Assembly: GCF_002854065.1 (NCBI RefSeq)
Contig: NZ_CP024147.1
DNA length: 64,000 bases
Direction: 5' to 3' (one strand)
DNA from: Escherichia coli
Lineage (GTDB): Bacteria > Pseudomonadota > Gammaproteobacteria > Enterobacterales > Enterobacteriaceae
Shown: one piece after another, positions 54,680 to 56,045 of the stretch
Layout: the number at the start of each line of letters is the position of its first letter
How positions within the stretch are numbered: position 1 is the first letter of the stretch
Position numbers and translations under genes: made by a program
The notes under the pieces: generated by a model
Database searches by the model: none
Told to the model about the DNA's origin: nothing
The model's input: only the letters and a program-made list of their open reading frames with translations

Positions 54680-54925
54680 TTATTCGCTGACAAACCAGTC
54701 ATCGGCGCTTTCCCACGTTTCCTGGAGAATTTCGCTAATGCGCTGTTTATCTTCTTTTGTCGCGCCAATAACCGATAAATTATTCGCTGCGGCGTAACGT
54801 ACCGATACGTGGCCTTCATTATCAGGAAACGCATACTGAATACGGCGGGAAAGTTCGCCAGCCAGGGCGTCAATAGCCCCAGCTGGCAATGGAGAAGTTT
54901 TCGCTATGGTGACTTCAATTCGCAT
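54680..54925 (-). CDS. dinI: DinI DNA-damage-inducible protein (81 aa)
   Basis: MRIEVTIAKTSPLPAGAIDALAGELSRRIQ... Confidence 0.9.
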   Translation of the reverse strand: MRIEVTIAKTSPLPAGAIDALAGELSRRIQYAFPDNEGHVSVRYAAANNLSVIGATKEDKQRISEILQETWESADDWFVSE

Positions 54926-54946
54926 AATAGCCCCCTGTTGAATATA

Positions 54947-54962
54947 CTGGTTATTTATACAG
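54947..54962. promoter_or_regulatory. LexA (SOS) box upstream of dinI
   Basis: ctggttatttatacag: CTG-N10-CAG palindrome matching the CTGTATATATATACAG consensus, about 22 bp upstream of the dinI ATG. Confidence 0.8.
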
Positions 54963-54998
54963 GTAAAATAACCTAATGACAACAGAAAGCTAGGATTT

Positions 54999-56045
54999 TT
55001 ATTGTTTAACGGACCAGCGTACCGTTTCCCCGGCGAGGAATGGCACCAGGGTGTCATCAGTCAGTGCGATGCTTTCAGCAACCTGTTGCTCTTCACGTAC
55101 CAGTTCGATGAATGTGTCGTTGACCGGCAACCCGTAGAACTGCGGGCCGTTTACAGAACAGAATGCTTCAAAGTGCTGCAGAGCATTCATCTCTTCAAAG
55201 ACGGTAGCGTAACTGCCCAGCGCGGTTGGGGCGTTGAAGCAGCCCGCGCAGCCGCAACTGCTCTCTTTGCGATGACGTGCATGTGGCGCAGAATCCGTAC
55301 CGAGGAATACTCGATTAAAACCGCTGGCGACCAGTTCACGCAATGCCTGTTGGTGAATATTGCGTTTGAGGATGGGTAGACAATACAGGTGCGGACGCAC
55401 GCCTCCAACCAGCATATGGTTGCGGTTAAACATCAGATGCTGCGGAGTGATGGTGGCAGCCAGCCGTTCATTTCCGTCACGGACATAGTCGGCAGCATCT
55501 TTGGTGGTGATGTGCTCAAAAACGACTTTCAGCGCAGTCAGGCGCTGGCGCAGAGGTTCCATCACGCTTTCTATAAAGCGCGCTTCACGATCAAAAATGT
55601 CGATATCTGCATGTGTCACTTCACCATGCACCAGTAGCGGCATACCGATTTTTTCCATGCGCTCAAGTACCGGCATGATTGCGTCAATTGACGTCACGCC
55701 GTGGCTGGAGTTAGTGGTTGCGTTTGCCGGGTAAAGTTTTGCAGCGGTGAACACGCCTTCGTTAAATCCGCGCTCCAGCTCATTAGGATCCAGCGAATCT
55801 GTTAAATAACAGGTCATCAATGGGGTGAAATCGTGCCCGGCAGGTACGGCGTCAAGAATACGCTGGCGATACGCCACGGCAGCCTCAACGGTGGTCACGG
55901 GCGGAGCCAGATTGGGCATTACGATAGCCCGTCCATAAATTTCGCTGGTATACGGCACGACAGTTTTTAACATGTCGCCATCGCGGAGGTGAAGGTGCCA
56001 GTCGTCTGGGCGGCGGATCTTTAATACCTGGGATGGTGCAGTCAT
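54999..56045 (-). CDS. pyrC: PyrC dihydroorotase (348 aa)
   Basis: [23 protein letters not shown]... Confidence 0.95.

What the first reader, a model, noticed from the sequence alone, without database searches (positions are those of the whole stretch)
54925..55000. dinI SOS box sits just upstream of the convergent pyrC 3' end
A LexA box (ctggttatttatacag) lies in the 73-bp gap between the dinI start and the pyrC stop, so SOS-induced dinI transcription and pyrC termination share a very tight space. This is ordinary core-genome regulation, noted for completeness.
Basis: established knowledge. Interest (0 to 1): 0.15.

Follow-up and report, generated by a model that had tools for sequence, protein, structure and literature searches.

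The report
dinI LexA operator downstream of pyrC
This is the already well-known SOS (LexA) operator of the E. coli dinI gene, in the 73-bp gap behind pyrC, which runs in the same direction and not convergently; it is ordinary, except that the gap also holds a conserved, undescribed RNA stem that might stop pyrC read-through transcripts from making DinI.

Summary
The sequence observation holds. ctggttatttatacag is at 54947-54962, inside the 20-bp operator ACCTGTATAAATAACCAGTA (minus strand, 54945-54964). The gap between the pyrC stop and the dinI ATG is exactly 73 bp. The site is the best LexA-matrix match in the 64-kb window. It is identical to the K-12 and published dinI box, and it was present in all 85 pyrC-dinI loci examined.

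The orientation is wrong. dinI and pyrC are both on the minus strand, so pyrC lies upstream in tandem and is not convergent.

The operator overlaps the inferred -10 (TATAAA) and start site. This is classical, already known SOS repression.

No intrinsic terminator lies in the gap. The first one follows dinI.

One new lead came up. A 13-bp RNA stem (14 bp in K-12) pairs the sequence just after the pyrC stop, which overlaps the dinI -35, with the dinI Shine-Dalgarno. It can form only in transcripts that start upstream. The stem is conserved across genera, with a lineage-level compensatory change (CCCCC/GGGGG versus CCUC/GAGG). It might block DinI translation from pyrC read-through. This is inferred, not shown, and in E. 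coli alone it is not statistically remarkable.

The parts
54945..54964 (-). LexA operator (SOS box) of dinI, 20-mer ACCTGTATAAATAACCAGTA. The core CTG-N10-CAG is at 54947-54962.
   Evidence: Read. Identical to K-12 and to the published dinI box (PMC3009722 Table 4). Top weight-matrix hit of the window at 19.3 bits. Present in 81 of 81 aligned loci.
54977..54982 (-). Inferred dinI -35 hexamer TTGTCA.
   Evidence: Read from the sequence, with a 17-nt spacer to TATAAA. TTG is invariant in alignment A2. Inferred; the promoter scan did not call it, because that scan requires T at position 6 of the -10.
54954..54959 (-). Inferred dinI -10 hexamer TATAAA, inside the LexA operator.
   Evidence: Sequence. 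Invariant or nearly invariant columns in A2. In K. pneumoniae the LexA box overlaps the mapped dinI start site (PMC10907235).
54931..54936 (-). dinI Shine-Dalgarno AGGGGG, 5 nt before the ATG.
   Evidence: Sequence. The G run is conserved in A2.
54680..54925 (-). dinI coding sequence (81 aa).
   Evidence: ORF. Pfam PF06183 at 2.1e-29. Annotated as dinI in E. coli genomes.
54999..56045 (-). pyrC coding sequence (348 aa), upstream of dinI on the same strand.
   Evidence: ORF. Pfam PF01979. Annotation.
54980..54992 (-). 5' arm UAGCUUUCUGUUG of the candidate RNA stem. It starts 6 nt after the pyrC stop and overlaps the -35, so it lies upstream of the dinI start site.
   Evidence: Minimum-free-energy fold. 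Duplex of -17.7 kcal/mol. Conserved as GCCCCCUGU in most genera.
54928..54940 (-). 3' arm CAACAGGGGGCUA of the candidate RNA stem. It contains the dinI Shine-Dalgarno.
54633..54658 (-). Intrinsic terminator after dinI (GCCGGGTCGCCCCGGC followed by a T run). It is the first terminator-like site downstream of pyrC on this strand.
   Evidence: Conserved with K-12.
56046..56095 (-). PyrC leader (Rfam RF02372), the known regulatory hairpin of pyrC. Listed for context only.
   Evidence: 67.6 bits against a gathering score of 50.

Best explanation
The feature is the LexA operator of the chromosomal dinI gene of Escherichia coli. dinI and pyrC lie in tandem on the minus strand, with pyrC upstream.

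The 20-bp operator (54945-54964) covers the inferred -10 hexamer TATAAA and the predicted start site of the dinI promoter (-35 TTGTCA, 17-nt spacer). It ends 19 nt before the ATG.

Mechanism, from established knowledge of the SOS system: a LexA dimer on the operator blocks RNA polymerase. After DNA damage, RecA filaments trigger LexA self-cleavage. dinI is then transcribed from a start inside the operator, and the transcript ends at the hairpin-plus-T-run terminator at 54633-54658. DinI then modulates RecA filaments.

Shown here: the sequence, its position, its identity to K-12, its statistical distinctness and its conservation.
Taken from papers: induction and LexA dependence.
Inferred: the exact -35, -10 and start site in E. 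coli.

The gap holds no terminator for pyrC, so some pyrC transcription probably runs into dinI. This last point is inferred.
For: - Sequence and gene order.
- Same gene order and the same 73-bp gap in K-12. The promoter, operator and ribosome site are identical to K-12, and the only 2 differences in the gap lie upstream of the -35.
- The 20-mer equals the dinI box listed in PMC3009722 Table 4.
- Weight-matrix score of 19.3 bits, first in the window, with 0 of 200 shuffles as high.
- E. coli dinI is induced 49-fold by AZT and is 39-fold dependent on LexA cleavage, with a box heterology index of 4.8 (PMC11228462).
- Salmonella dinI has its main box 19 bp from the ATG, the same distance as here (PMC8072944).
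- In K. pneumoniae the box overlaps the mapped start site, and ChIP shows LexA leaving the site after mitomycin C (PMC10907235).
- Exactly one CTG-N10-CAG is present in each of 81 pyrC-dinI gaps from about 80 species. It lies 18-21 nt before the ATG in 77 of them.
- The box is also kept in more distant loci L087, L089, L090 and L096 and in phage dinI copies.
- The gap is present in 5398 of 5426 complete E. coli genomes.
- Only one terminator-like site lies downstream of pyrC, after dinI.
Against: - Nothing contradicts the operator assignment.
- The simple promoter scan did not call the dinI promoter, because its -10 ends in A.
- No E. coli start-site or LexA-binding data could be retrieved with these tools. 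Binding and induction therefore rest on papers about K-12, Salmonella and Klebsiella, not on this strain.
- Read-through from pyrC is inferred only from the absence of a terminator motif. Rho-dependent or roadblock termination cannot be excluded.
Confidence: 0.97

Rival explanations
1. pyrC and dinI converge, so the SOS box sits where two opposing transcription units end and start, and pyrC termination happens in the gap.
For: Only the tight 73-bp spacing supports this.
Against: Both ORFs are on the minus strand in the window, in K-12 and in all 80 related loci. No terminator-like site lies in the gap.
Confidence: 0.01
2. The CTG-N10-CAG is a chance match with no regulatory role.
For: The bare core motif is common: 27 copies in the window against 12.7 expected.
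Against: The full 20-mer scores 19.3 bits against 11.3 for the next best site, and no shuffle reaches it. It is identical to the published box. It is conserved in 81 of 81 loci at a fixed distance from the ATG.
Confidence: 0.01
3. Additional layer, as the insulation reading. The 13-bp stem between 54980-54992 and 54928-54940 forms only in RNAs that start upstream of the dinI promoter, meaning pyrC read-through. It buries the dinI Shine-Dalgarno there, so DinI is translated only from LexA-controlled transcripts, which start inside the loop.
For: - The stem appears in the minimum-free-energy fold.
- The Shine-Dalgarno is unpaired with median probability 0.001 in read-through RNA and 0.42 in promoter-start RNA across 81 loci.
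- Cost of opening the Shine-Dalgarno: 9.4 versus 2.8 kcal/mol in the window, and 15.7 versus 2.8 in K-12.
- The cost is above the median of composition-matched shuffles in 79 of 81 loci.
- Of the 60 E. coli control genes, 6 (one of them dinI itself) show a shift of at least 6 kcal/mol, whereas 72 of 77 pyrC-dinI loci do.
- The core pairs are 85-97% paired. 75.5% of cells are paired, against at most 59% when the partners are slid.
- CCCCC/GGGGG and CCUC/GAGG lineages each pair with their own partner and poorly with the other type.
- The C run has no upstream partner.
- The sense strand folds better than the antisense in 55 of 85 loci.
Against: - RNAalifold did not predict the stem.
- Column-wise covariation is weak. 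Only 3 pairs have changes on both sides, and the core varies on one side only.
- In E. coli alone the energy shift ranks only 5th of 60 genes.
- Both arms carry other constraints: the -35 and the Shine-Dalgarno.
- Trabulsiella keeps the arms although a new ribosome site lies 43 nt downstream.
- The Klebsiella-like locus has its own pyrC terminator and a weaker stem.
- No data on read-through transcripts were found.
Confidence: 0.4
4. The same stem serves translational coupling. A ribosome terminating at the pyrC stop melts the 5' arm and frees the dinI ribosome site, so a basal DinI level follows pyrC translation.
For: The 5' arm begins a median of 7 nt after the pyrC stop, and within 10 nt in 73 of 85 loci. 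That is inside or at the edge of a terminating ribosome's footprint (established knowledge of ribosome footprints).
Against: A ribosome at the stop would cover only the outer 3-4 pairs and leave the 9-bp G-C core on the Shine-Dalgarno. The stem is kept where the arm lies 59-281 nt from the stop (L087, L089, L090).
Confidence: 0.1
5. The complementarity has no function of its own. The 5' arm is conserved as promoter context, the 3' arm as ribosome site, and the match between them is coincidence. Alternatively, the palindrome acts as an odd terminator (sense or antisense) or at the DNA level.
For: - The base rate of similar energy shifts is about 10% of E. coli genes.
- Phage dinI copies have only 5-bp matches.
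- Antisense duplexes are as good or better in 30 of 85 loci.
- An A run follows the pyrC stop in many loci and would read as a T run on the other strand.
Against: - GCCCCC is a conserved island in an otherwise variable stretch and is unlike any known upstream promoter element.
- The match is kept after lineage-specific changes of both arms.
- Only 1 of 85 loci has 5 or more T in the 8 nt after the 3' arm, so there is no U tract.
- The three G-U pairs in the window become A-C mismatches on the other strand: -11.8 versus -17.7 kcal/mol.
Confidence: 0.4

Closest known systems
E. coli K-12 dinI (b1061) promoter and LexA box
   Same: Same 20-mer, same inferred -35 and -10, same ribosome site, same 73-bp gap after pyrC, and same gene order solA-bssS-dinI-pyrC-yceB-grxB on one strand.
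   Different: Two substitutions in the gap upstream of the -35. One of them turns a C-G pair of the candidate stem into U-G. There is also a 3-nt insertion in the dinI 3' untranslated region. The window allele of the gap is rare: 12 records at 99% identity or more, against 5289 at 95-99%.
dinI LexA boxes of Salmonella enterica and Klebsiella pneumoniae
   Same: The box is 19 bp from the ATG in Salmonella (PMC8072944). In Klebsiella the box overlaps the start site and LexA occupancy was shown by ChIP (PMC10907235).
   Different: Klebsiella dinI carries a longer 3' end that yields the small RNA DinR. The E. coli 3' untranslated region here is only about 45 nt, and the paper describes that stretch as Klebsiella-specific.
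Fold-back inhibition of read-through transcripts in IS10 and IS50 transposase genes (Davis, Simons and Kleckner 1985; Schulz and Reznikoff 1991; from my own knowledge). IS200 has left-end protection against impinging transcription plus a Shine-Dalgarno-sequestering hairpin (PMC4513863).
   Same: A sequence upstream of the gene's own start site pairs with its ribosome site, so only transcripts from the gene's own promoter are translatable. The candidate stem has this geometry.
   Different: Those are mobile elements with experimental proof. Here the gene is a chromosomal SOS gene behind a biosynthetic gene, and nothing has been tested.
pyrC leader (Rfam RF02372), start-site-dependent hairpin over the pyrC ribosome site
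   Same: Same principle, in which the 5' end of the transcript decides whether the Shine-Dalgarno is buried, and in the neighbouring gene. It shows the same energy shift of 6.3 kcal/mol in my control set.
   Different: It is a short local hairpin within the leader and is governed by nucleotide-sensitive start-site choice (established knowledge). It is not a long-range stem spanning a promoter.
Translational coupling through long-range pairing (for example MS2 coat-replicase, rpmI-rplT; from my own knowledge)
   Same: The downstream ribosome site is paired with sequence near the end of the upstream gene.
   Different: In those cases the masking sequence lies inside the upstream coding region and is melted by translating ribosomes. 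Here it lies after the stop codon.

Membership tests
E. coli-type LexA operator (SOS box) | Palindrome CTG-N10-CAG with an A/T-rich spacer inside a 20-mer close to TACTGTATATATATACAGTA | tested here: met
   ACCTGTATAAATAACCAGTA at 54945-54964. It has more than 3 mismatches to the perfect consensus. It scores 19.3 bits on a matrix built from 16 published boxes, which themselves score 14.3-28.0.
E. coli-type LexA operator (SOS box) | Overlaps the promoter or start site of the regulated gene | tested here: met
   The box contains the inferred -10 TATAAA and ends 19 nt before the ATG. Overlap with the start site was mapped in Klebsiella. The E. coli start site itself was not retrieved.
E. coli-type LexA operator (SOS box) | Conserved in orthologous promoters | tested here: met
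   Present in 81 of 81 loci, and 18-21 nt before the ATG in 77 of them. Also present in 4 distant loci.
E. coli-type LexA operator (SOS box) | [quoted passage not shown] | not testable with these tools
   Papers only: 49-fold induction and 39-fold LexA dependence in E. coli, 22.8-fold induction in Salmonella, and ChIP in Klebsiella.
DinI family (Pfam PF06183) | Protein matches the family profile above the curated cut-off | tested here: met
   102.1 bits against a cut-off of 24.2.
Convergent gene pair sharing a terminator region | The two genes lie on opposite strands with their 3' ends facing each other | tested here: not met
   Both genes are on the minus strand.
Intrinsic terminator between pyrC and dinI | G+C-rich hairpin with a short loop followed by a U tract | tested here: not met
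   No such site in 54926-54998. The long-range stem has a loop of 39 nt and no U tract. The C run has no upstream partner.
Read-through-blocking fold-back over a ribosome site (IS10/IS50 type) | The 5' arm lies upstream of the gene's own start site and the 3' arm covers the Shine-Dalgarno | tested here: met
   The 5' arm at 54980-54992 overlaps the -35. The 3' arm at 54928-54940 contains AGGGGG. The start site is inferred.
Read-through-blocking fold-back over a ribosome site (IS10/IS50 type) | The pairing is maintained in evolution by compensatory change | tested here: inconclusive
   Pairing is high and there is a lineage-level swap between CCCCC/GGGGG and CCUC/GAGG. However, only 3 columns have changes on both sides, and RNAalifold gave no consensus stem.
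Read-through-blocking fold-back over a ribosome site (IS10/IS50 type) | Read-through transcripts exist and are poorly translated | not testable with these tools
   No transcript-end or translation data were found for this junction.

The most novel reading that the evidence does not exclude
The pyrC-dinI gap encodes a conserved long-range RNA stem. Its 5' arm lies just after the pyrC stop and over the dinI -35. Its 3' arm is the dinI Shine-Dalgarno. The stem acts as a translational insulator. Transcripts reading through from pyrC, which has no terminator of its own in most Enterobacteriaceae, cannot be translated into DinI. Transcripts from the LexA-controlled promoter start inside the loop and are translated. 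This would be a chromosomal counterpart of the fold-back protection known from IS10 and IS50. It would keep a RecA modulator strictly under SOS control despite a strongly regulated biosynthetic gene 73 bp upstream.
Probability: 0.4. Interest if true: 0.45.

Novelty: already known. Interest (0 to 1): 0.2.

Why it matters
The LexA box itself adds nothing new. It is the textbook dinI operator, and the value of the check is to correct the gene orientation.

The stem matters only if it proves real. It would explain how a tightly SOS-controlled gene can sit 73 bp behind a terminator-less, pyrimidine-regulated gene without leaking. It would also give a simple, testable chromosomal example of 5'-end-dependent translatability. 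And it would warn that dinI reporter constructs that include upstream pyrC sequence may behave differently from the native promoter transcript.

Tried and rejected
- Perfect-consensus search with up to 3 mismatches found nothing. I replaced it with a weight matrix.
- The promoter scan missed the dinI promoter because of its rule on the last -10 base. Its two + strand hits are at chance level, 2 found against 2.6 expected.
- RNAalifold on 77 gaps gave no consensus stem.
- Rfam has no family in the gap, only chance-level hits.
- Paper searches for pyrC-dinI co-transcription or dinI Shine-Dalgarno masking found nothing.
- The held supplements of the E. coli 3'-end mapping and SMRT-Cappable-seq papers carry no entry for this junction. 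They do not list the dinI terminator either, so their silence is uninformative. The Rend-seq paper has no held supplement.
- The word-indexed protein search returned only close homologues. I obtained distant loci through the representative search instead.
- Three of those distant loci were uninformative. L092 is a 398-nt contig without a box, L093 is a C-to-T converted assembly, and L095 is a phage-like copy without a box.
- Rejected, pyrC terminator made of the C run plus upstream pyrC sequence: the C run is paired with upstream sequence at a median probability of only 0.18.
- Rejected, the stem as a canonical terminator: there is no U tract after it.
- Rejected, local LexA control of pyrC. 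The reported LexA-dependent AZT induction of pyrC covers the whole pyr regulon, so it does not point to this box.

Full report
WHAT IS THERE

On the minus strand the window reads, 5' to 3': the end of pyrC with stop TAA at 55001-54999, a 73-nt gap (54998-54926), and dinI (ATG at 54925-54923, stop end at 54680). The two proteins match Pfam Amidohydro_1 and DinI, and the next gene downstream is bssS. RefSeq annotation of identical or near-identical E. coli genomes and of K-12 names the same genes, all on one strand: solA-bssS-dinI-pyrC-yceB-grxB. On the gene's own strand it sits inside ACCTGTATAAATAACCAGTA (54964-54945).

IS IT MORE THAN CHANCE

The bare core CTG-N10-CAG occurs 27 times in the window against 12.7 expected, so it proves nothing alone. 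I built a symmetric weight matrix from the 16 other LexA boxes in Table 4 of PMC3009722, leaving dinI out. It puts 54945-54964 first among all positions at 19.3 bits. That is within the 14.3-28.0 range of the training sites. The runner-up scores 11.3, and none of 200 shuffles reaches 19.3. The 20-mer is letter for letter the dinI box printed in that table. From the -35 through the start codon the window is identical to K-12. The gap is found in 5398 of 5426 complete E. coli genomes.

A protein-based scan returned 80 loci from about 80 species, including Escherichia, Citrobacter, Salmonella, Enterobacter, Lelliottia, Kluyvera, Kosakonia, Buttiauxella, Atlantibacter and Cedecea. All have pyrC immediately upstream on the same strand. 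All have exactly one CTG-N10-CAG in the gap. In 77 of the 81 loci it lies 18-21 nt before the ATG. In the other 4 an insertion separates promoter and start codon. Four more distant pyrC-dinI loci, with DinI identity down to 44%, keep a box 18-22 nt before the ATG. Four of the five phage dinI copies I read carry one 13-19 nt before the ATG.

HOW IT WORKS

The box contains TATAAA (54959-54954). TTGTCA (54982-54977) lies 17 nt upstream of it. This gives an inferred sigma-70 promoter whose -10 and start site are covered by the operator.

Papers supply the function. E. coli dinI is induced 49-fold by AZT and is 39-fold dependent on LexA cleavage (PMC11228462). Salmonella dinI is induced 22.8-fold, with its box 19 bp from the ATG, the same spacing as here (PMC8072944). 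In K. pneumoniae the box overlaps the mapped start site and LexA occupancy falls after mitomycin C (PMC10907235). This is the classical SOS operator mechanism and is already known.

pyrC is not convergent with dinI. It is the upstream tandem neighbour. The gap also holds no intrinsic terminator. The scan finds the first one on this strand after dinI, at 54658-54643 followed by a T run. Where pyrC transcription ends is therefore open. Read-through into dinI, Rho-dependent termination, or a LexA roadblock are all possible, and none could be tested here.

A LEAD BEYOND THE FINDING

Folding the minus-strand RNA across the junction gives a 13-bp stem between UAGCUUUCUGUUG (54992-54980) and CAACAGGGGGCUA (54940-54928). 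The first arm starts 6 nt after the pyrC stop and overlaps the -35. The second arm contains the dinI Shine-Dalgarno. The 5' arm lies upstream of the dinI start site, so the stem can form only in RNA made from upstream.

Conservation of the arms:
- In most other genera the arms are GCCCCCUGU and ACAGGGGGC. They form a conserved island in an otherwise variable spacer.
- On the 77-sequence alignment, 75.5% of cells are paired, against at most 59% when the partners are slid.
- The nine core pairs are 85-97% paired and vary only on one side, mostly C to U, which gives G-U.
- The three outer pairs show changes on both sides in 30 cells, a count reached by 3 of 500 shuffles.

Thermodynamics:
- The Shine-Dalgarno is essentially always paired in read-through RNA (median unpaired probability 0.001), almost entirely with the 5' arm. 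In RNA starting at the predicted dinI start the value is 0.42.
- Opening the Shine-Dalgarno costs 9.4 versus 2.8 kcal/mol in the window and 15.7 versus 2.8 in K-12. The common K-12 allele has C-G where the window has U-G.

Lineages with a GGAGG-type ribosome site have a CCUC-type arm, which then overlaps the -35 as TTGCCTC (L052, L089, L096). Arms and ribosome sites pair well within a type and poorly across types. The C run has no alternative partner upstream. No U tract follows the stem. The sense strand folds better than the antisense in 55 of 85 loci.

CAUTIONS ON THAT LEAD

- RNAalifold did not recover the stem.
- Column-wise covariation is thin, and the sequences are related, so the shuffle control overstates significance.
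- Both arms carry other constraints.
- I applied the same energy measure to 60 annotated genes of an E. coli genome. dinI ranks only fifth at 6.3 kcal/mol, level with pyrC's known leader hairpin. About 10% of genes reach 6 kcal/mol. The argument therefore rests on 72 of 77 orthologous loci reaching that value, with a median of 9.5, and those loci are not independent.
- Composition-matched shuffles of the 5' segment still cost 7.5 kcal/mol against 13.1 observed.
- Trabulsiella keeps both arms although an insertion has given dinI a new ribosome site.
- A Klebsiella-like locus has a separate pyrC terminator and a weaker stem.
- Phage copies show only 5-bp matches.
- The 5' arm starts within 10 nt of the pyrC stop in 73 of 85 loci, so a coupling role cannot be dismissed. 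A terminating ribosome would reach only the outer pairs, though, and the stem persists where the arm is 59-281 nt from the stop.
- No paper or Rfam family describing the stem was found.

VERDICT

The finding is real, correctly identified as the dinI SOS box, and ordinary. Its stated geometry (convergent pyrC) is wrong. The regulation is already known. The only thing worth a follow-up is the conserved anti-Shine-Dalgarno stem. I rate it at about 0.4 as a translational insulator against pyrC read-through. It works like the IS10/IS50 fold-back, but membership in that class is untested for the decisive features.

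Noticed in passing
window 54680-55057 (-): The longest ORF through dinI is 125 aa. 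It starts inside the end of pyrC and runs across the promoter and operator. Public protein sets contain such N-terminally extended 'DinI' entries of 102-125 aa (P0002-P0005, P0009, P0014). These look like start-codon miscalls.
   Followed up: partly
window 54949-54973 (-): A perfect 8-bp inverted repeat, GGTTATTT (54973-54966) and AAATAACC (54956-54949). Its second arm lies inside the LexA box. In read-through RNA it extends the outer stem into a long hairpin. It is seen in Escherichia but is not conserved in other genera.
   Followed up: partly
window 54136-54393 (-), bssS: bssS has a similar ribosome site (UAGGGGGCC). In the control set it shows the third-largest upstream-dependent masking of its Shine-Dalgarno, 8.2 kcal/mol. 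grxB (12.7) and ymdB (9.5) rank higher.
   Followed up: no
L062 and L080 (Buttiauxella), about 126 nt between the dinI promoter and the Shine-Dalgarno; L033 and L034 (Trabulsiella), about 43 nt: These are insertions in the dinI 5' untranslated region. From memory, the Buttiauxella insert resembles an ERIC/IRU repeat (…GAGCTTACATAGGTAAGTGA…CTTGAAGTATGACGGGT). Both stem arms are retained around it.
   Followed up: no
L093 (Logan SRR8137538): This dinI locus has almost every C read as T (AATTGTATATATATTTAGTA…ATAGGGGGTTATTatgtgtatt). It looks like an assembly of bisulfite-converted reads, a database artefact that produced its own 'protein cluster' P0137.
   Followed up: partly
window 54660-54680 (-), dinI 3' untranslated region: The window has 3 extra bases relative to K-12 just before the terminator stem (GATTTTTGTTTTTGCC versus GATTTTTTTTGCC). 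The window's version of the 73-bp gap is also a rare allele among E. coli genomes.
   Followed up: partly
window 56046-56095 (-), 15222-15415 (-), 35908-35999 (-), 46096-46138 (-), 29448-29532 (-): Rfam matches above the gathering score: PyrC leader, Ysr251, ES056, ES036 (CssrF) and a tRNA.
   Followed up: no
pyrC, window 54999-56045 (-): PMC11228462 lists pyrC, with the whole pyr regulon, among AZT-induced genes that depend on LexA cleavage but have no LexA box. The only box nearby is the dinI one, downstream of pyrC, which cannot explain induction of the whole regulon.
   Followed up: no
L097 and L098 (E. coli CUWW06) versus the window: The genome that matches the dinI region at 100% carries IS1 copies in pgaA-C, csgD and elsewhere. 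Its tRNA-Ser is offset by 774 nt relative to the window, so the two are not colinear over the first half of the window.
   Followed up: no
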